Virus record (IMG/VR): IMGVR_UViG_2526164693_000018
Length of the DNA: 5,399 nucleotides
Origin: a virus
Lineage: Duplodnaviria; Heunggongvirae; Uroviricota; Caudoviricetes
Strand: one strand, 5' to 3'
The notes below the pieces were generated by a model that saw only the letters and a list, made by a program, of their open reading frames with translations, was not told the origin of the DNA and did not search any database. Shown piece after piece: positions 1 through 5,399 of the stretch. Both the position numbers and the translations under genes were made by a program. Positions within the stretch are counted from its first letter, which is position 1; each line of letters opens with the position of its first letter.

Positions 1-349
1 TACACCATTCTGAGATGTTTTTATTTGGTCCAAACATGCCGCCTTGCTGCTTGATAATATTCATTCTGACGAGTTCTAACTTGGCTTCATTGCACCGTTT
101 GACAGGTAACTTTGTAATCTCGCTAAGTTGAGAATCGGTGATTCTGTCCATTGGTTTATTCCACCCATAGGTTTTACGCAGAATGGCAAGCAGCACTTTA
201 AACTGTCGCTTGGTCAGATCTGCGCCCGAATAAGCCTCAAGCAGCATATTTGATAGTCTGGCGTAACCATCATCGAGATCTGCCACATTACGCTCCTGTC
301 CGGCAAAGTTACCTCTGCCGAAGTTGAGTATTTTTGCTGTATTTGTCAT
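1..349 (-). CDS. O: Replication initiation protein O, N-terminal ~116 codons; gene runs off the left edge of the window
   Basis: Minus-strand translation from the ATG at 349 (complement of cat 347-349) gives MTNTAKILNFGRGNFAGQERNVADLDDGYARLSNMLLEAYSGADLTKRQFKVLLAILRKTYGWNKPMDRITDSQLSEITKLPVKRCNEAKLELVRMNIIKQQGGMFGPNKNISEW, which matches the lambda O N-terminus as I recall it. No stop inside the window, so it is absent from the ORF track. It lies directly downstream of cII as in lambda. Confidence 0.9.
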   Translation of the reverse strand, partial: MTNTAKILNFGRGNFAGQERNVADLDDGYARLSNMLLEAYSGADLTKRQFKVLLAILRKTYGWNKPMDRITDSQLSEITKLPVKRCNEAKLELVRMNIIKQQGGMFGPNKNISEWC

Positions 350-352
350 AAT
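324..352 (+). promoter_or_regulatory. Candidate pO promoter for oop RNA (-35 ttgagt 324-329, 17-nt spacer, -10 cataat 347-352)
   Basis: Sigma70-like hexamers with 17-bp spacing, placed to start transcription near 360 where the oop-like RNA begins. Location inside the O 5' end matches the known lambda arrangement. Confidence 0.5.
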
Positions 353-359
353 GACTCCT

Positions 360-436
360 GTTGATAGATCCAGTAATGACCTCAGAACTCCATCTGGATT
401 TGTTCAGAACGCTCGGTTGCCGCCGGGCGTTTTTTA
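360..436 (+). ncRNA. oop: oop antisense RNA (77 nt), complementary to the 3' end of cII
   Basis: Begins gttgatagatcc and ends in an intrinsic terminator: stem cgctcgg (410-416) / ccgggcg (423-429) with one G-U pair, loop ttgccg, then a T6 run at 430-435. The 77-nt length and the antisense overlap with the cII 3' end match lambda oop. Confidence 0.8.
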
Positions 437-675
437 TTGGTGAGAATCGCAGCAACTTGTCGCGCCAATCGAGCCATGTCGTCGTCAACGACCCCCCATT
501 CAAGAACAGCAAGCAGCATTGAGAACTTTGGAATCCAGTCTCTCTTCCACCTGCTGATCTGCGACTTATCAACTCCCACAGCTTCCGCTGTCTTCTCAGT
601 TCCAAGCATTGCGATTTTGTTAAGCAACGCACTCTCGATTCGTAGAGCCTCGTTGCGTTTGTTTGCACGAACCAT
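382..675 (-). CDS. cII: Transcriptional activator CII (97 aa)
   Basis: The internal Met of the 382..735 minus ORF gives MVRANKRNEALRIESALLNKIAMLGTEKTAEAVGVDKSQISRWKRDWIPKFSMLLAVLEWGVVDDDMARLARQVAAILTNKKRPAATERSEQIQMEF, which appears identical to lambda CII from memory. The start is the ATG at 675 (complement of cat 673-675). The upstream 20 codons of the track ORF are read-in from the intergenic region. Confidence 0.96.
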   Translation of the reverse strand: MVRANKRNEALRIESALLNKIAMLGTEKTAEAVGVDKSQISRWKRDWIPKFSMLLAVLEWGVVDDDMARLARQVAAILTNKKRPAATERSEQIQMEF

Positions 676-690
676 ATGTAAGTATTTCCT
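653..690 (+). promoter_or_regulatory. pRE region: CII-binding direct repeats TTGC-N6-TTGC (653-656 and 663-666) with downstream -10 region
   Basis: The sequence ttgcgtttgtttgc is the classic CII tetramer recognition motif flanking the -35 of pRE. It is oriented toward cro and cI on the plus strand and overlaps the cII start, as in lambda. Confidence 0.7.
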
Positions 691-754
691 TAGATAACAA
701 TTGATTGAATGTATGCAAATAAATGCATACACCATAGGTGTGGTTTAATTGGAT

Positions 755-786
755 GCCCTTTTTCAGGGCTGGAATGTGTAAGAGCG
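755..786 (-). promoter_or_regulatory. nutR: boxA (complement of gtaagagcg 778-786 = CGCTCTTAC) and boxB (complement of 755-769 = GCCCTGAAAAAGGGC)
   Basis: The reverse complement reads cgctcttacacattccagccctgaaaaagggc, the lambda nutR boxA-spacer-boxB arrangement. It sits between cro and cII; the rho-dependent tR1 region would lie in 676-754. Confidence 0.85.
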
Positions 787-793
787 GGGTTAT

Positions 794-1003
<210 letters not shown>

Positions 1004-1018
1004 TTAGTACATGCAACC

Positions 1019-1089
1019 ATTATCACCGCCAGAGGTAAAGTAGTCAACACGCGCGGTGTTAGATATTTATCCCTTGCGGTGATAGATTT
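1019..1089. promoter_or_regulatory. Right operator OR1 (1021-1037), OR2 (1045-1061), OR3 (1068-1084), with divergent PR (minus strand) and PRM (plus strand)
   Basis: Three 17-bp lambda-type operators: tatcaccgccagaggta, caacacgcgcggtgtta, tatcccttgcggtgata. PR on the minus strand has -35 TTGACT (complement of 1043-1048) and -10 GATAAT (complement of 1019-1024). PRM on the plus strand has -35 tagata (1060-1065) and -10 tagatt (1083-1088). The cI ATG at 1095 lies about 6 nt after the -10, consistent with leaderless cI mRNA. Confidence 0.9.
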
Positions 1090-1091
1090 AA

Positions 1092-1808
<717 letters not shown>

Positions 1809-2182
1809 AGAGGATAGATGGAGTTTAATGGCCATGAGTATCAAGCGGTCAAAAAGAAGTTCATCTATTCATTGAAAGCATAAGGCCATCTGAGTATATC
1901 CGTAATGATCTGGATATTGTCTATAACATCAATGACCGGACGATAGATATCGGTGAGCAGCGTCCTGTATGGCAGGGTGAGGCAGGTGAAAAAACGTCCT
2001 GCCATCAACAAGAATCAAGTGCATCCGCTCTCTGGACAGATGGAAAATTTATTGGATGCAAAAAGATATGAAATAACACCTGTATAGCACGGAGCTTTCT
2101 CTGACCGATGCACTTGAAGTTGTTAGGGCTGACCCAGCCTGCTGTTTCTTTAGGTAAGAGAAAAGAGATTTAGGAGATGAAA

Positions 2183-2209
2183 GGTCGCAGAGGTGCGGCC
2201 TTTTTTATT
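2183..2209 (+). terminator. Intrinsic terminator-like hairpin: stem ggtcgca / tgcggcc (one G-U pair), loop gagg, followed by T6
   Basis: 7-bp stem at 2183-2189 and 2194-2200, then tttttt at 2201-2206. Plus-strand orientation, about 375 nt downstream of the cI stop. Confidence 0.6.
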
Positions 2210-2248
2210 GAGAGTGGATCTTGAACGGAAATTCTCAAGACTTGAGTC

Positions 2249-2277
2249 TTGCATGCAAATCAATTCCTGGATAAACT
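2249..2277 (+). promoter_or_regulatory. Candidate sigma70 promoter for the 173-aa ORF (-35 ttgcat 2249-2254, 17-nt spacer, -10 taaact 2272-2277)
   Basis: Hexamers with canonical spacing about 33 nt upstream of the ORF start, overlapped and preceded by dyad-symmetric motifs (ctcaagacttgag 2234-2246, ttgcatgcaa 2249-2258). Confidence 0.35.
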
Positions 2278-2309
2278 CGATCTGAGTCAATAACTTAGAG
2301 AGAGAGCAA

Positions 2310-2831
2310 ATGGCAAAGTCAAACGTTAGCGTGCAGGCATTCAAGGACTTCCTTGAAGAGCTTATGTCGCTGAACATAATGAAGGAGGCCACCGCTCGAA
2401 ATTTAAAAAACTCATCCGCTCGCCTCTTAACGGTAGTCCAAGAAGAGGAAATGGGTGATGTTACTCAGCTTGATGTGAATGAGCTTGCCGAGCGATACAT
2501 CAACGCAACTGAGCCGAAGCCTAGCGACAGCAGCATTACTGCATATAAAAGCCGCATGGAAAGTGCAATCAAAAAGTTTGTAGCTTTCCAGTCTGGTGAA
2601 GAAATCCCATACACTCCGATTGACAAAGAATCCAGTGAGGAAAAAGATTTGACTGGCGAACCAACAAAAGTCGAAGGCAAGGCTAATGCACTTCATACCT
2701 ATGATCTTCCAGTAGTTCTTCGACCTGAATCAGGGGTTACAGTAACGATTAAAGGCATTCCTAACGATATCACAAACGAAGAAGCCGAACGCATCTCTTC
2801 AATTCTGAAGGTTTACGTTCGGCCTCAATAA
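2310..2831 (+). CDS. Hypothetical protein (173 aa), acidic, no recognised domain; occupies the position of rexA/rexB
   Basis: Longest ORF in the non-lambda segment. Purine-rich stretch gagagagag at 2297-2305 precedes the ATG at 2310. Hydrophilic, net acidic by my count (about 29 D/E against 21 K/R), no obvious transmembrane segment. A promoter-like element lies upstream and a terminator downstream. Confidence 0.6.
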   Translation: MAKSNVSVQAFKDFLEELMSLNIMKEATARNLKNSSARLLTVVQEEEMGDVTQLDVNELAERYINATEPKPSDSSITAYKSRMESAIKKFVAFQSGEEIPYTPIDKESSEEKDLTGEPTKVEGKANALHTYDLPVVLRPESGVTVTIKGIPNDITNEEAERISSILKVYVRPQ

Positions 2832-3004
2832 TGCAAAAGCATTCAGCACAATGTCCAACTCCCCAGTCCGACATTGATGCTGTTTAACCAGAGCCTCCAA
2901 AAGGAGCCCTTGTTAAGGTACACAATATTTGCGATGTAACCTTAGCGCGTCTGGTACATTTTTTCAAGCGGTTGTAGGGCTGCCGCCAATATGAGAAAAC
3001 ACAG

Positions 3005-3127
3005 ATGTCTACATACAATTTGAATGACCAATTCGATCGAGAAGTTCATGTGAATGCCTATGAACGGATAAGGCATGGAAATCTTGAACATGTGTGTGAG
3101 CATTATCGCTCAAGGCCACACCGCTAA
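3005..3127 (+). CDS. Candidate small ORF (40 aa, MSTYNLNDQFDREVHVNAYERIRHGNLEHVCEHYRSRPHR), speculative
   Basis: ATG at 3005, stop taa at 3125-3127, ending 6 nt before a strong intrinsic terminator. Only a weak Shine-Dalgarno (gaga at 2993-2996). Below the length cutoff of the ORF track. The region could instead be a 3'UTR or sRNA. Confidence 0.25.
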   Translation: MSTYNLNDQFDREVHVNAYERIRHGNLEHVCEHYRSRPHR

Positions 3128-3132
3128 TCATC

Positions 3133-3161
3133 AACCCGGCCTCCATGCCGGGTTTTCTTTT
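3133..3161 (+). terminator. Strong intrinsic terminator: stem aacccggc / gccgggtt, loop ctccat, followed by ttctttt
   Basis: 8-bp GC-rich perfect stem (3133-3140 and 3147-3154) with a T-rich tail on the plus strand. The reverse-strand tail is less U-rich, so it is mainly unidirectional. Confidence 0.75.
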
Positions 3162-3341
3162 CCTCTCGCCCAAAAAAACACATAACCAATTGTATTTATT
3201 GGAAAATAAATAGATACAACTCACTAAACAACGCAATTCTGATCTCTCCTTACATCGCCGAGGCAATACACCCACGCTAAAAAACAATACTATTAAATAC
3301 AAAGCGTTGTAAAAAAACGCCCCGTTTTAGAACAAATTGTA

Positions 3342-3370
3342 TTGACCAAGTGAAGTACATATCGTACTAT
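3342..3370 (+). promoter_or_regulatory. Candidate pL-equivalent promoter (-35 ttgacc 3342-3347, 17-nt spacer, -10 tactat 3365-3370)
   Basis: Good -35 and moderate -10 with 17-bp spacing, about 45 nt upstream of a boxA-like element and 190 nt upstream of the N-like gene. A 5-bp-arm dyad agtac-N5-gtact (3354-3368) overlaps the spacer and -10. No lambda-type 17-bp OL operators are visible. Confidence 0.4.
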
Positions 3371-3415
3371 TTAACCATCAGCAGGACGCTGGAAGCCAAA
3401 TGGAACAGACTGGCA

Positions 3416-3461
3416 GGCTCTTTAAACAACGTCGACTCTCGACTACGTGGCTGAAAAGCCA
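3416..3461 (+). promoter_or_regulatory. Candidate nutL: boxA-like ggctctttaaacaa (3416-3429) and boxB-like hairpin tggct-gaaa-agcca (3448-3461)
   Basis: gctctttaa matches the boxA consensus (CGCTCTTTA; closer to the rrn-type TGCTCTTTAACAA). Downstream there is a 5-bp stem with a GAAA loop resembling a boxB hairpin. A second short hairpin gtcga-ctc-tcgac (3431-3443) lies between them. Located in the leader of the N-like gene. Confidence 0.5.
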
Positions 3462-3559
3462 GATCACCCAACCACATAAGCTGTGGGATGCAATGCCGAA
3501 GCAACCGTCTCAGGAGGAGCTTCGAGATTGCATCGCCAAAGTTTATTCGGGAGGAATCT

Positions 3560-3832
3560 ATGTCCAGAAAAACAGAATTTAAAGGCACCGCAGCTTCTCG
3601 CCGTAGAGCTCGTCGCGCAAACCTGCAAAGTCAGGAGGCGATTAGCTCCGACAAACTACACAGGCCAACCCCATCACGAGTGGTCTTACAATGCAAACGC
3701 AAACCAGCAATGAGAGCAGAAGTAATAACACTGACAACGTTGACCAGAAAATATGAAGGCTCAACTTGTCTTCCAAATGTAGCTCTTTACGCGGCAGGCT
3801 ACCGTAAATCCAAACAACTGACAGCAAGATGA
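3560..3832 (+). CDS. N: N-family transcription antiterminator (90 aa), P22 gp24 / phi21 N-like rather than lambda N
   Basis: Start chosen at the internal ATG 3560, preceded by gggagg at 3549-3554 (5-nt spacer). N-terminal arginine-rich motif GTAASRRRARRANLQ, typical of N-protein ARMs. The C-terminus LPNVALYAAGYRKSKQLTAR resembles the P22 gene 24 product as I recall it. Lies downstream of the candidate pL and nutL. Confidence 0.75.
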   Translation: MSRKTEFKGTAASRRRARRANLQSQEAISSDKLHRPTPSRVVLQCKRKPAMRAEVITLTTLTRKYEGSTCLPNVALYAAGYRKSKQLTAR

Positions 3833-3890
3833 CTTGTGTTGGTCGCCAGAAAATGAAATTAGGCAGCAAACCACTTATTTGAGGTGATAT

Positions 3891-4142
3891 ATGGAATTTC
3901 ATGAAAGTGCGATTTGTGATTTTCGCGCTAACGCAAATTCAGTAAAACCACAGCCAATTGCAGTTCTTTTTAAAACAATGGGTGCGTGGGCTGTTTTATG
4001 CTTCGCCGCTGACGACACTGACGCAAGAATGGCAATAGGACAAGAGATGGAGATGGACCCGACAAACGATGAATTCATAATTTATGGCGCTCCATCTAAT
4101 TACTTACTTGATACCTGCAACATTTACAACAAGGCTGCCTGA
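3891..4142 (+). CDS. Hypothetical protein (83 aa) in the position occupied by ral in lambda
   Basis: ORF with Shine-Dalgarno gaggtg at 3879-3884, 6 nt before the ATG at 3891. No similarity to lambda Ral that I can recognise except the C-terminal NKAA. Confidence 0.6.
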   Translation: MEFHESAICDFRANANSVKPQPIAVLFKTMGAWAVLCFAADDTDARMAIGQEMEMDPTNDEFIIYGAPSNYLLDTCNIYNKAA

Positions 4143-4278
4143 TGGTGGCCTTTATTTTTGGCATAAACAACAGAATAAACACAGCACTGTGTATTCATTC
4201 CAACGAGTGAATACACGGAGCAATGTCGCTCGTAACTAAACAGGAGCCGACTTGTTCTGATTATTGGAAATCTTCTTT

Positions 4279-4304
4279 GCCCTCCAATGTGAGGGCGATT
4301 TTTT
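4279..4304 (+). terminator. Intrinsic terminator-like hairpin: stem gccctc / gagggc, loop caatgt, followed by ga + T6
   Basis: 6-bp GC-rich stem (4279-4284 and 4291-4296) with tttttt at 4299-4304, located about 20 nt upstream of the 122-aa ORF ribosome-binding site. Analogous in position to tL1 downstream of N. Confidence 0.6.
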
Positions 4305-4324
4305 ATCTGTGAGGATATGAACAG

Positions 4325-4693
4325 ATGTCAAACATCAAAAAATACATCATTGATTACGACTGGAAAGCATCAATAGAAATTGAAATCGACCATGACGTAA
4401 TGACAGAGGAAAAACTTCACCAGATTAATAATTTCTGGTCAGACTCTGAATACCGACTCAATAAACACGGCTCTGTATTAAATGCTGTATTAATCATGCT
4501 GGCGCAACATGCTCTGCTTATAGCAATTTCAAGCGACTTAAATGCATATGGTGTTGTGTGTGAGTTCGACTGGAATGATGGAAATGGTCAGGAAGGATGG
4601 CCTCCAATGGATGGTAGCGAAGGAATAAGAATTACCGATATCGATACATCAGGAATATTTGATTCAGATGATATGACTATCAAAGCCGCCTGA
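4325..4693 (+). CDS. Hypothetical protein (122 aa) with acidic C-terminal region
   Basis: ORF with Shine-Dalgarno gagga at 4311-4315, 9 nt before the ATG at 4325. Asp/Glu-rich C-terminal half (DWNDGNGQEGWPPMDGSEGIRITDIDTSGIFDSDDMT). Not a lambda gene I recognise. Confidence 0.6.
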   Translation: MSNIKKYIIDYDWKASIEIEIDHDVMTEEKLHQINNFWSDSEYRLNKHGSVLNAVLIMLAQHALLIAISSDLNAYGVVCEFDWNDGNGQEGWPPMDGSEGIRITDIDTSGIFDSDDMTIKAA

Positions 4694-4765
4694 GCGCGGC
4701 GTTACCGCATACCAATAACGCTTCACTCGAGGCGTTTTTCGTTATGTATAAATAAGGAGCACACC

Positions 4766-4930
4766 ATGCAATATGCCATTGCAGGGTGGCCTGTTGCTGG
4801 CTGCCCTTCCGAATCTTTACTTGAACGAATCACCCGTAAATTACGTGACGGATGGAAACGCCTTATCGACATACTTAATCAGCCAGGAGTCCCAAAAAAT
4901 GGATCAAACACTTATGGCTATCCAGACTAA
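4766..4930 (+). CDS. cIII: CIII protein (54 aa), FtsH protease inhibitor that stabilises CII
   Basis: Translation [54 protein letters not shown] matches lambda CIII. Shine-Dalgarno aggag at 4755-4759. It is in a different frame from the 4773..5042 track ORF. Confidence 0.92.
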   Translation: MQYAIAGWPVAGCPSESLLERITRKLRDGWKRLIDILNQPGVPKNGSNTYGYPD

Positions 4931-5042
4931 ATTCACTATCGCCACTTTTATTGGCGATGAAAAGATGTTTCGTGAGGCCGTCGACGCTTATAAAAAATGG
5001 ATATTAATACTGAAACTGAGATCAAGCAAAAGCATTCACTAA
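4899..5042 (+). CDS. kil: Kil protein (47 aa), host cell-division inhibitor
   Basis: The internal Met of the 4773..5042 track ORF gives [47 protein letters not shown], matching lambda Kil. Shine-Dalgarno aggag at 4886-4890. Overlaps the cIII 3' end by 32 nt in another frame, as in lambda. Confidence 0.85.
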
Positions 5043-5116
5043 CCCCCTTTCCTGTTTTCCTAATCAGCCTGGCATTTCGCGGGCGATATTTTCACAGCTA
5101 TTTCAGGAGTTCAGCC

Positions 5117-5399
5117 ATGAACGCTTATTACATTCAGGATTGTCTTGAGGCTCAGAGCTGGGCGCGTTACTACCAGCAGATCGCCCGTGAAGAGAAAGAG
5201 GCAGAACTGGCAGACGACATGGGAAAAGGTCTGCCCCAGCACCTGTTTGAATCACTCTGCATCGATCATTTGCAACGCCACGGGGCCAGCAAAAAAGCCA
5301 TTACCCGTGCGTTTGATGACGATGTTGAGTTTCAGGAGCGCATGGCAGAACACATCCGGTACATGGTTGAAACCATTGCTCACCACCAGGTTGATATTG
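5117..5399 (+). CDS. ea10: Ea10-like early protein, N-terminal 94 codons; runs off the right edge of the window
   Basis: Translation [94 protein letters not shown] closely resembles lambda Ea10 from memory. Shine-Dalgarno aggag at 5105-5109. No stop in the window. Confidence 0.75.

What the first reader, a model, noticed from the sequence alone, without database searches (positions are those of the whole stretch)
2219..2277. Dense dyad symmetry over the candidate promoter of the 173-aa ORF
A perfect 13-bp palindrome ctcaagacttgag (2234-2246) sits immediately upstream of a perfect 10-bp palindrome ttgcatgcaa (2249-2258) that contains the candidate -35 hexamer. Related tcttga/tcaaga half-sites recur at 2219-2224 and 2247-2252. 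This arrangement looks like an operator for a dimeric regulator, so the module may be switched rather than constitutive.
Basis: seen in the sequence. Interest (0 to 1): 0.5.

Follow-up and report, generated by a model that had tools for sequence, protein, structure and literature searches.

The report
Conserved operator-like repeat at moron promoter
The palindromes sit on the real promoter of an uncharacterised Shiga-toxin-phage gene that could not be deleted from lysogens, but only one inverted repeat (AAGACT/AGTCTT, beside the -35 box) is conserved, and it looks like a private binding site, possibly for the gene's own DNA-binding-type product.

Summary

On this sequence alone the cluster is only mildly unusual (p about 0.03-0.1). 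Comparison with 11 distinct relatives shows:
- The promoter TTGCAT-17-TAAACT is real. Its position is conserved across the whole gene family.
- The 10-bp palindrome TTGCATGCAA is a chance by-product of the -35 box.
- The AAGACT/AGTCTT arms, centred near -40.5, are about 0.9 identical. Neutral sites are about 0.5 identical, and the centre of the repeat varies.

Extra copies of the same hexamer lie in the promoter spacer of relatives. More distant clades carry different dyads at the same position. The motif-plus-promoter combination occurs only next to this gene.

Best reading: a private operator on a self-contained moron promoter, most likely for autoregulation. This is inferred, not shown. A new member of a known kind, of moderate interest.

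The parts
2181..2209 (+). Intrinsic terminator (AAGGTCGCA-gagg-TGCGGCCTT followed by a T run). It ends transcription coming from cI and marks the left edge of the module in this sub-lineage.
   Evidence: Hairpin in the RNA fold. It is conserved in Oslo/L026 and L063 with changes confined to the loop (GAGG, GAAA, GAGA). Other sub-lineages carry a different terminator at the same place.
2219..2224 (.). Distal TCTTGA half-site, which pairs with TCAAGA at 2235-2240 across 10 nt.
   Evidence: It is kept only in L026 (N9) and as 5/6 in L063. It is absent where another terminator abuts the dyad. Probably incidental.
2234..2246 (.).
   Evidence: The outer pair is lost in Oslo, and the palindrome is broken in L063 (CTCAAGaCTCGAA). 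It overlaps the conserved left arm but is not itself conserved.
2236..2251 (.). Conserved dyad CAAGACT-tg-AGTCTTG. The core arms are AAGACT (2237-2242) and AGTCTT (2245-2250). It is centred at about -40.5 and its right arm overlaps the first three bases (TTG) of the -35 box (the core arm AGTCTT overlaps two). Proposed operator.
   Evidence: p 0.0085. Pairwise identity of the arms in 11 distinct relatives is about 0.89 and 0.92 (worked out from the table), against 0.51 at 4-fold sites and 0.53 in the promoter spacer. The centre varies (TG, CG, T, A). Each hexamer occurs once in the window, and the dyad occurs once in 50 kb of VT2-Sakai.
2249..2254 (+). -35 hexamer TTGCAT.
   Evidence: TTGC is invariant in the 11 distinct sequences of this clade. 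TTG with a 17-18 nt spacer is kept in all clades.
2249..2258 (.). Judged a chance by-product of the -35 hexamer.
   Evidence: About 5 such palindromes are expected in 5.4 kb (4^-5 per position). It is lost in Oslo (TTGCATATGA) and in L063 (TTGCATAGAA) while TTGCAT stays.
2272..2277 (+). -10 hexamer TAAACT. The transcription start is predicted near 2283-2286.
   Evidence: TAAACT, TAGACT or TAGAAT lies at a fixed distance from the ATG in nearly all family members. The start site is inferred, not mapped.
2279..2282 (.). GATC (Dam site) at about -5 to -2, inside the conserved TCGATCT block.
   Evidence: GATC lies within -60 to +10 in five independent clades, against about 0.1-0.35 expected per 70 nt.
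2310..2831 (+). 173-aa ORF. It equals ECs1184 / ORF23 / H0093 of prophage Sp5 (VT2-Sakai). The N-terminal part is a four-helix domain of recombinase core-binding type, followed by a low-confidence (presumably flexible) linker and a small C-terminal domain.
2832..3004 (+). Conserved, probably structured RNA spacer between the two ORFs of the module.
   Evidence: 46 predicted pairs, 7 with compensatory changes. The counterpart in type-B loci has 10 of 27 pairs with compensatory changes. No Rfam family matches.
3005..3127 (+). Small ORF (40 aa, H0092/ECs1183 type), the second gene of the module.
   Evidence: Third-codon-position variation across 8 loci. One of two forms of this ORF is present in 55 of the 57 distinct gene-bearing loci then held, including the window.
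3133..3161 (+). Intrinsic terminator that closes the module.
   Evidence: 8-bp stem, 6 G-C pairs, T run. Annotated as a terminator in AP000422. Conserved with compensatory changes.

Best explanation
Positions 2249-2277 hold a genuine sigma-70 promoter, TTGCAT-17-TAAACT, with the transcription start predicted near 2284. It drives a self-contained mobile unit (a 'moron'). The unit consists of an upstream terminator, this promoter, the 173-aa gene, a conserved RNA spacer of about 173 nt, a small ORF and a downstream terminator. It sits where lambda carries rexAB, between cI and pL/N.

Of the dense dyad symmetry, only the inverted hexamers AAGACT (2237-2242) and AGTCTT (2245-2250) are under selection. 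They are centred near -40.5, and the right arm runs into the TT of the -35 box. I read them as an operator private to this module. The most likely binder is the module's own 173-aa product, whose N-terminal domain has the DNA-binding core-binding fold of tyrosine recombinases.

On this model, two DNA-binding domains are joined through a flexible linker to a small C-terminal domain. They occupy the hexamers and hinder sigma region 4 at the -35 box. That gives negative autoregulation, meaning a set level of expression in the lysogen rather than an on/off switch.

Shown: the promoter's conservation, the conservation of the hexamers, the protein fold, and the exclusive link between this motif and this gene.

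Inferred: that any protein binds the site, which protein it is, and whether it represses or activates.
For: 1. **Promoter.** A TTGnnn-17/18-TAnAnT pair lies 25-35 nt from the ATG in all clades, from 33% to 100% protein identity.
2. **Arms conserved, centre not.**
   - AAGACT is perfect in 7 of 11 sequences and 5/6 in the other 4.
   - AGTCTT is perfect in 8 of 11 and 5/6 in the other 3.
   - The centre is TG, CG, T or A.
   - 4-fold sites are 0.51 identical and the -35/-10 spacer 0.53.
3. **The same hexamer recurs in relatives.**
   - A third copy (AAGACT or AAGATT) lies at -24, inside the promoter spacer, in L062, L064, L067, L068 and L069.
   - L073 (52% protein identity) has a perfect 16-bp AAGACTGATCAGTCTT against its -35 box, and a second AAGACTGATCAGT against its -10 box.
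   - The Serratia clade has AGTCTT-N3-AGTCTT.
   - Sites inside the spacer point to repression.
4. **The module carries the dyad wherever it moves.** It is found between cI and N, between Q and the holin gene (L069), beside dinI (L067) and beside alpA/DUF3024 (L063).
5. **More distant clades have different dyads at the same position.**
   - These clades lie on contigs that share stretches of 77-78% DNA identity with phages of Enterobacterales hosts.
   - The L037 clade has 13-bp arms centred at -41, with 4 pairs changed on both sides and 0 of 500 shuffles reaching the covariation score.
   - L056 has AATCAA-N6-TTGATT, centred at -39.5.
   - L055 has ATCAA-N10-TTGAT, centred at -41.5.
6. **The motif type follows the large protein's clade, not the small ORF's type**.
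7. **The site is private.**
   - The dyad occurs once in 50 kb of VT2-Sakai.
   - In a capped sample of 247 motif matches in viral contigs, the 19 with a promoter downstream all sit next to a homologue of this gene.
8. **Fold.**
   - Pfam gives a sub-threshold Phage_int_SAM_1 hit.
9. **Expression and importance.** The protein was detected in Sakai lysogens. The gene could not be deleted from an Sp5 lysogen.
Against: - There is no binding, footprint, reporter or start-site data. I found no usable start-site table.
- On this sequence alone the dyad cluster is barely beyond chance.
- Half-site spacing is not constant: N2 in the window, N1 in most relatives, N4 in L073, and a direct repeat in Serratia. 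A rigid dimer would not tolerate that.
- Within the window's clade there are only one-sided changes in the arms and no compensatory pairs.
- L032 and L036 lack a clear dyad at -41.
- The protein's most conserved motif, EATARNLKNS, is invariant across clades that have different dyads. That is unexpected if it reads the bases.
- The fold match rests on a model with mean pLDDT 67. Foldseek against PDB found nothing significant.
- The protein was picked up in an RNA-association screen (FDR 0.065), although it was not confirmed as an RNA binder.
- The window's hexamers match consensus only 7/12, so a site centred near -41 could equally serve an activator.
Confidence: 0.4

Rival explanations
1. The site is a constitutive promoter element with no dedicated regulator. 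The conserved GTCTTGC/AAGACT block is part of the promoter's own architecture, for example an extended -35 context, DNA shape or an alpha-subunit contact. Its palindromic look is incidental. The moron is simply expressed in the lysogen.
For: - The right arm is fused to the -35 box, and GTCTTGC is the best-conserved piece.
- There are no compensatory changes within the clade.
- The variable spacing fits poorly with a dimeric binder.
- Morons typically carry simple promoters of their own.
- The protein is present in lysogens.
- The single-sequence statistics are weak.
Against: - The left arm is as well conserved as the right although it lies at -47 to -42, and the bases between the arms vary.
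- Further copies of the hexamer occur in either orientation at -24 and -48/-49.
- The block is G+C-mixed, unlike an UP element.
- Unrelated dyads recur at the same position in other clades, one of them with covariation.
Confidence: 0.25
2. The site is bound by a host transcription factor common to Enterobacterales. The factor could be a class II-type activator centred near -41, or a repressor, and would tie moron expression to host physiology.
For: - The dyad centre at about -40.5 is close to the classical -41.5 activator position.
- The window's hexamers are weak, 3/6 and 4/6.
- The module works in many genera: Escherichia, Salmonella, Cronobacter, Yersinia, Proteus, Morganella and Serratia.
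Against: - The motif differs between clades whose contigs share stretches of DNA with phages of Enterobacterales hosts.
- The motif-plus-promoter combination was found only beside this gene.
- It does not fit CRP, FNR, LexA, RcsB, PmrA, lambda CII (TTGC-N6-TTGC), lambda cI or Sakai cI sites. The first five comparisons are by eye from remembered consensus sequences. The cI operators were compared directly.
- In relatives, sites lie inside the spacer, which suits a repressor rather than an activator.
Confidence: 0.15
3. The element acts as a nucleic-acid hairpin rather than a protein site. The repeats would fold in read-through RNA from cI, or extrude in DNA, and affect termination or processing.
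For: - The minimum-energy fold of 2160-2310 pairs UCUUGA with UCAAGA (z = -2.8).
- The long repeat of the L037 clade keeps its complementarity through compensatory changes, which a hairpin would also explain.
Against: - The window's conserved arms are separated by 1-2 nt, too few for an RNA loop. Only a 5-6 bp stem could form.
- Half of the variant arms create C-A mismatches on the plus strand (L062, L063).
- A strong terminator lies just upstream (2181-2209), so little read-through RNA is expected.
- Transcripts starting at this promoter do not contain the repeat.
Confidence: 0.05
4. The block is a recombination boundary. A short conserved sequence at the left edge of the module would be kept because it promotes exchange of the moron between lambdoid phages.
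For: Homology between sub-lineages begins exactly at the left arm, and three different terminators abut it. The module occupies at least five genomic contexts.
Against: A boundary role does not explain the extra hexamer copies inside the promoter spacer. It also does not explain the position-specific dyads of unrelated sequence in other clades.
Confidence: 0.05

Closest known systems
Autoregulated operators of small phage and toxin-antitoxin operons (for example antitoxin-repressed type II TA promoters, or P22 mnt/arc)
   Same: Palindromic half-sites overlap the core promoter of a short operon. The proposed regulator is encoded by the first gene. The first gene cannot be deleted while the rest of the module is present. 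The downstream small gene is far better conserved than the upstream one.
   Different: The two ORFs are 173 nt apart, with a conserved structured RNA between them, instead of abutting or overlapping. No toxicity has been shown. The protein fold is not one of the usual antitoxin DNA-binding folds. No PADLOC or Pfam family matches.
Recombinase-fold prophage repressors of SPbeta-type phages (MrpR/YopR, PMC10516654; SroF, bioRxiv 10.1101/2025.11.27.690993)
   Different: They are full-length recombinase-like proteins of Gram-positive phages. The protein here has only the core-binding-type domain plus a small unrelated C-terminal domain, 173 aa in all. It coexists with a classical cI/Cro switch, and its only recognisable site is at its own promoter.
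Lambda cI at OR2 and PRM, and class II activators centred near -41.5
   Same: A dyad centred about 41 bp upstream of the start that overlaps the -35 box by two bases.
   Different: The sequence is unrelated to lambda or Sakai cI operators. Relatives carry extra sites inside the spacer, which points to repression.
Lambda rexAB with its own internal promoter (pLit), and other morons at the cI-pL position such as 933W stk
   Same: It sits at the same genomic slot, is expressed in the lysogen, and is bounded by terminators.
   Different: The genes are unrelated. This module has its own conserved promoter and dyad, and it also moves to other slots such as Q-holin and beside dinI.

Membership tests
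Sigma-70 promoter | -35-like and -10-like hexamers separated by 17 +/- 1 bp | tested here: met
   TTGCAT (2249-2254), 17 bp, TAAACT (2272-2277). This is only 7/12 to consensus, below the scan threshold. Sister lineages reach 9/12 (TTGCAA/TAGAAT).
Sigma-70 promoter | Position and hexamers conserved in homologous loci | tested here: met
   All clades have TTGnnn-17/18-TAnAnT ending 25-35 nt before the ATG.
Sigma-70 promoter | Mapped 5' end about 7 nt downstream of the -10 box | not testable with these tools
   No start-site table could be read. The supplement of PMC7547250 is not held.
Operator for a dimeric DNA-binding regulator | Two inverted half-sites | tested here: met
   AAGACT and AGTCTT (2237-2242 and 2245-2250), extendable to 7-bp arms.
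Operator for a dimeric DNA-binding regulator | Half-sites conserved while the centre and flanks drift | tested here: met
   Arm identity is about 0.9, against 0.51 at 4-fold sites and 0.53 in the spacer. The centre is TG, CG, T or A.
Operator for a dimeric DNA-binding regulator | Overlap with core promoter elements | tested here: met
   The right arm includes the TT of the -35 box. Relatives add copies at -24 and next to the -10 box.
Operator for a dimeric DNA-binding regulator | Fixed spacing between half-sites | tested here: not met
   N2 in window, L026 and L063. N1 in eight other lineages. N4 in L073. A direct repeat with N3 in Serratia.
Operator for a dimeric DNA-binding regulator | Demonstrated protein binding and effect on transcription | not testable with these tools
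   This needs EMSA or footprinting and reporter assays.
Immunity operators (lambda cI, or VT2-Sakai cI) | Match to the resident repressor's operator consensus | tested here: not met
   Lambda-type sites occur only at 1021-1084. Sakai-type sites (AAATACA/AGTACA half-sites) occur at 3295-3369. Neither resembles AAGACT/AGTCTT.
CII-activated promoter | TTGC-N6-TTGC straddling the -35 region | tested here: not met
   TTGC at 2249-2252 is followed six bases later by ATCA, read directly. The relatives lack it too.
Intrinsic terminator or RNA hairpin | Stem with a loop of at least 3 nt, G+C-rich, followed by a U run | tested here: not met
   The arms are 1-2 nt apart and no T run follows. The real terminator is the separate hairpin at 2181-2209.
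Tyrosine recombinase (for the 173-aa product) | N-terminal core-binding (SAM-like) four-helix domain | tested here: met
Tyrosine recombinase (for the 173-aa product) | C-terminal catalytic domain with the RHR-Y active site | tested here: not met
   The protein is 173 aa. After the linker only a predicted strand-strand-helix unit of about 40 residues remains. All of the best 150 of 631 family representatives are 110-238 aa. It is not a recombinase.
Type II toxin-antitoxin operon | Two adjacent or overlapping small genes transcribed together | tested here: not met
   Both genes lie between one promoter and one terminator, but they are 167-177 nt apart, with conserved RNA between them.
Type II toxin-antitoxin operon | The first gene cannot be removed while the second is present, and the second is toxic | not testable with these tools
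   ECs1184 is reported as not deletable (PMC5155283). Toxicity of the small ORF has not been tested.
Dam-methylation-sensitive promoter | GATC inside or next to the -35 or -10 hexamer | tested here: inconclusive
   In the window GATC lies at about -5 to -2, not inside a hexamer. In other clades it lies in the -35 box or next to the -10 box.

The most novel reading that the evidence does not exclude
ECs1184-type proteins would be a new class of small transcription regulators, built from a tyrosine-recombinase core-binding domain alone. There are 631 family representatives at 50% clustering, and all of the best 150 are 110-238 aa. On this reading they bind AGTCTT-type hexamers at their own promoter. 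Through that they control a three-part module: the regulator itself, a conserved structured RNA of about 150-175 nt that has no Rfam family, and a highly conserved small basic protein. The module would behave as an addiction or exclusion cassette. That would explain why ECs1184 cannot be deleted from the Stx2 prophage Sp5.
Probability: 0.2. Interest if true: 0.7.

Novelty: new member of a known kind. Interest (0 to 1): 0.45.

Why it matters
ECs1184 (ORF23) is one of only two early-region genes of the Stx2 prophage of E. coli O157:H7 Sakai that could not be deleted. The authors suggested it is needed to keep the lysogen stable (PMC5155283). As of 2025 it still had no known function (PMC7618764).

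This work gives that open question specific handles to test:
- a defined promoter;
- a 14-16 bp candidate operator with named bases to mutate;
- a structural reason to test the protein as a DNA binder;
- two conserved partners to delete together with it, the small ORF and the RNA spacer.

If the autoregulation model holds, it adds a second, cI-independent control circuit inside the immunity region of Shiga-toxin phages. If it fails, the element is an ordinary moron promoter.

Tried and rejected
- **Rfam.** In the window it found only the cIII thermoregulator. In type-B loci it found nothing credible.
- **Published start sites.** The supplement of PMC7547250 is not held, and PMC13502914 does not cover this region.
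- **Dyad as a phage-wide operator.** Rejected: there is one site in 50 kb of VT2-Sakai.
- **Motif scans of viral contigs.** These were swamped by chance matches. They were useful only after filtering for a promoter downstream.
- **8-bp-arm palindrome in the coding region (TTCAAGGAcTTCCTTGAA, 2340-2357).** Rejected as a by-product of the conserved F-K-x-F-L-E codons. Synonymous variants break it in relatives.
- **Minus-strand promoter using the palindromic TTGCAT.** I found no acceptable -10 by eye, and the scan found none.
- **Known E. coli regulator consensus sequences** (CRP, FNR, LexA, RcsB, PmrA, EvgA, MetJ, IHF). Compared from memory only. None fitted. This is a lead, not a test.
- **G-T wobble bias in the L037-clade repeat as a sign of RNA structure.** There were 5 wobble cells and 14 other mismatches, which is not enriched.

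Full report
**Where the window comes from**

The plus strand runs in lambda's leftward direction. In order it carries:
- cII (382-675, minus strand), cro (794-994, minus strand) and the three lambda OR operators (1021-1084);
- cI (1095-1808);
- a terminator hairpin (2181-2209) and then the finding (2219-2277);
- a 173-aa ORF (2310-2831), a small ORF (3005-3127) and a terminator (3133-3161);
- OL/pL (3295-3370), nutL, N (3560-3832) and the genes from ea10 onward.

From 1398 to the end the window is 99.4% identical to VT2-Sakai (prophage Sp5) and many other Stx phages. Positions 1809-3400 are 100% identical. The 173-aa ORF is H0093 / ORF23 / ECs1184 of Sakai. Neither deposited annotation marks a promoter at 2219-2277. 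AP000422 treats the two ORFs as part of the pRM transcript.

**Checking the observation**

- Both palindromes are at the stated coordinates, and TCTTGA is at 2219-2224.
- Positions 2247-2252 read TCTTGC, a 5/6 match.
- In 500 dinucleotide shuffles of the window, repeats of this size are common: 6.8 with arms of at least 6 bp and 1.7 with arms of at least 7 bp.
- Three dyads within 30 bp are reached by 10% of shuffles. The summed arm length is reached by 2.6%.
- A 10-bp perfect palindrome is expected about five times in 5.4 kb.
- On its own sequence, then, the cluster is only mildly unusual.

**The promoter is real**

I collected homologous loci from three sources:
- the phage database (Salmonella phage Oslo);
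- viral contigs (55 loci) and one Proteus genome;
- contigs that encode individual homologues.

In every clade, down to 33% protein identity, a TTGnnn-17/18-TAnAnT pair ends 25-35 nt before the start codon. The window's hexamers are weak (TTGCAT/TAAACT, 7/12). Sister lineages have TTGCAA/TAGAAT (9/12).

The gene with its promoter occurs in several contexts:
- between cI and N;
- between Q and the holin gene (L069);
- beside dinI (L067);
- beside alpA/DUF3024 (L063);
- after replication genes (L037).

It is bounded by terminators. This is the anatomy of a self-contained moron.

**Which part of the dyad symmetry is selected**

I compared 11 distinct sequences of the window's clade (protein identity 72-100%).
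- The 10-bp palindrome is lost in close relatives (Oslo TTGCATATGA, L063 TTGCATAGAA), while TTGCAT stays.
- The 13-bp palindrome loses its outer pair in Oslo and is broken in L063.
- The distal TCTTGA half-site disappears wherever a different terminator abuts the promoter.
- What persists is AAGACT (perfect in 7 of 11, 5/6 in the rest) and AGTCTT (perfect in 8 of 11, 5/6 in the rest).
- Between the arms the centre varies in sequence and length: TG or CG in three lineages, a single T or A in eight.
- Pairwise identity of the arms is about 0.89 and 0.92. It is 0.51 at 4-fold degenerate sites of the adjoining gene and 0.53 in the -35/-10 spacer (arm values worked out from its table).
- Conserved arms, a free centre and drifting flanks are the usual footprint of a protein-binding site.
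- Changes in the arms are one-sided transitions. There is no compensatory pair within this clade.

**The same hexamer elsewhere in the family**

- A third copy (AAGACT or AAGATT) lies at -24, inside the promoter spacer, in L062, L064, L067, L068 and L069.
- L073 (52% protein identity) has a perfect 16-bp AAGACTGATCAGTCTT against its -35 box and a second AAGACTGATCAGT against its -10 box.
- Three Serratia loci (54%) have AGTCTT-N3-AGTCTT ending at the -35 box.
- Sites inside the spacer favour repression.

**More distant clades**

The hexamer is replaced by unrelated dyads at the same position.
- The L037 clade has 13-bp arms separated by about 15 bp, centred at -41. Four pairs changed on both sides, and 0 of 500 shuffles reached the covariation score.
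- L056-58 have AATCAA-N6-TTGATT, centred at -39.5.
- L055 has ATCAA-N10-TTGAT, centred at -41.5.
- L032, L035 and L036 show nothing significant at that position.
- These distant clades lie on contigs that share stretches of 77-78% DNA identity with Enterobacter, Salmonella and Cronobacter phages. The change of motif therefore tracks the module rather than the host.

**A private site**

- Each hexamer occurs once in the window.
- The dyad occurs once in the first 50 kb of VT2-Sakai.
- In a capped sample of 247 matches in viral contigs, the 19 followed by a promoter-like TTGC..-16/18-TA.A.T all sit next to a homologue of this gene.
- The site does not resemble the lambda or Sakai cI operators.
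- It does not resemble a CII site (read).

**The candidate binder**

- The motif type follows the clade of the 173-aa protein, not the type of the small downstream ORF. Type-B small ORFs accompany all three motif types.
- An AlphaFold model built from a 21-sequence alignment gives a confident four-helix N-terminal domain (pLDDT 85-90). It is followed by a disordered linker (residues 101-132) and a low-confidence strand-strand-helix unit.
- Foldseek against PDB found nothing significant.
- Pfam gives a sub-threshold Phage_int_SAM_1 hit.
- The protein has no catalytic domain. The family has 631 representatives at 50% clustering, and the best 150 are all 110-238 aa. It is not a recombinase.
- A DNA-binding domain on a long, presumably flexible linker could tolerate the variable half-site spacing. 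That point is inference.

**What the literature says**

- ORF23 (ECs1184) could not be deleted from an Sp5 lysogen of K-12. The authors suggested it is needed for stable lysogeny (PMC5155283).
- It was borderline in an RNA-associated-proteome screen of Sakai, and was not confirmed as an RNA binder (PMC7618764).
- So the protein is made in lysogens and its function is unknown.

**Most likely mechanism**

1. The promoter at 2249-2277 drives the two-gene module in the lysogen.
2. The AAGACT/AGTCTT pair overlapping the -35 box is a private operator.
3. The best candidate binder is the module's own core-binding-domain protein, acting as a negative autoregulator.

I put about 0.85 on the promoter, about 0.6 on a protein-binding operator, and about 0.4 on the full statement. 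The rivals are:
- a constitutive promoter element with incidental symmetry (0.25);
- a host factor, possibly a class II-type activator, given the weak hexamers and the -40.5 centre (0.15);
- a hairpin (0.05);
- a recombination boundary (0.05).

**Verdict**

The operator interpretation is partly supported by comparative evidence, and not at all by direct evidence. This is a new member of a known kind: an operator on a moron promoter. It sits upstream of a gene that matters for Stx2 prophage biology, which gives it moderate interest (0.45).

Noticed in passing
window 1-1398 versus 1398-5399; OL at 3295-3311, 3328-3344 and 3353-3369: The immunity region is a hybrid. The lambda-type cI N-terminal domain, OR1-3, cro and cII are joined, inside the shared coding region for the cI C-terminal domain, to VT2-Sakai DNA. 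That DNA keeps Sakai-type OL operators (AAATACA/AGTACA half-sites), and there is no lambda-type operator near pL. The resident repressor should therefore not control pL/N. No phage record and no complete E. coli genome holds more than 80% of the window. This is either a natural recombinant or an assembly chimera.
   Followed up: partly
window 2832-3004; counterparts such as L037:3514-3671 and L004:3520-3677: The spacer of about 155-177 nt between the 173-aa gene and the small ORF is more conserved than synonymous sites, and it folds into a multi-stem structure with compensatory changes. Type A loci show 7 of 46 predicted pairs with compensatory changes. Type B loci show 10 of 27. No Rfam family matches. 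It may be an undescribed cis-regulatory or small RNA.
   Followed up: partly
window 2851-2870 versus L026 (phage Oslo type): The inner 20 nt of the first hairpin after the stop codon (GTCCAACTCCCCAGTCCGAC) appears as its near reverse complement in Oslo-type loci (GTCAGACTGGGGAGTTGGAC). The inversion is flanked by the stem CAATGTC/GACATTG.
   Followed up: no
window 3005-3127 (small ORF, H0092/ECs1183 type): This is a real coding gene, shown by third-position variation. It comes in two forms, 40 aa and 57-61 aa. The longer form is 71-100% identical across loci in which the neighbouring large protein is only 33-46% identical to the window's. Both forms are basic and rich in His and Cys. No family matches in PADLOC, and for the window's 40-aa form none in Pfam either. 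RefSeq no longer annotates it in Sakai.
   Followed up: partly
window 2279-2282 and 2217-2220; promoters of L035, L037-L054 and L055-L058: GATC (Dam) sites recur inside or next to the core promoter in five independent clades of the family. They lie at -5/-4, at -16 and -4, at -52 and -33, at -52 and -21, and at -17 and -30. About 0.1-0.35 are expected per 70 nt. This may link expression to methylation state or to SeqA.
   Followed up: partly
window 3891-4142: The 83-aa ORF just after N (phrog_2471, function unknown) is ECs1180/ORF21. It is the only other early gene of Sp5 reported as not deletable.
   Followed up: no
window 2340-2357: TTCAAGGA-ct-TCCTTGAA is one of the two longest-armed (8 bp) short-spacer palindromes in the window and lies in the first codons of the 173-aa gene. 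Synonymous variants break it in relatives, so it is a by-product of the conserved F-K-x-F-L-E codons.
   Followed up: yes
window 1809-2170: The stretch between the cI stop codon and the terminator has no long ORF. In other E. coli prophages it matches, at about 96% identity, DNA annotated as a DUF3024 gene. An intact DUF3024 gene precedes the module in L063 and L065. This is probably a decayed remnant.
   Followed up: no
window 4753-4811: Strong Rfam match to the lambda cIII thermoregulator element (RF01804, 88.5 bits), at the start of cIII.
   Followed up: no
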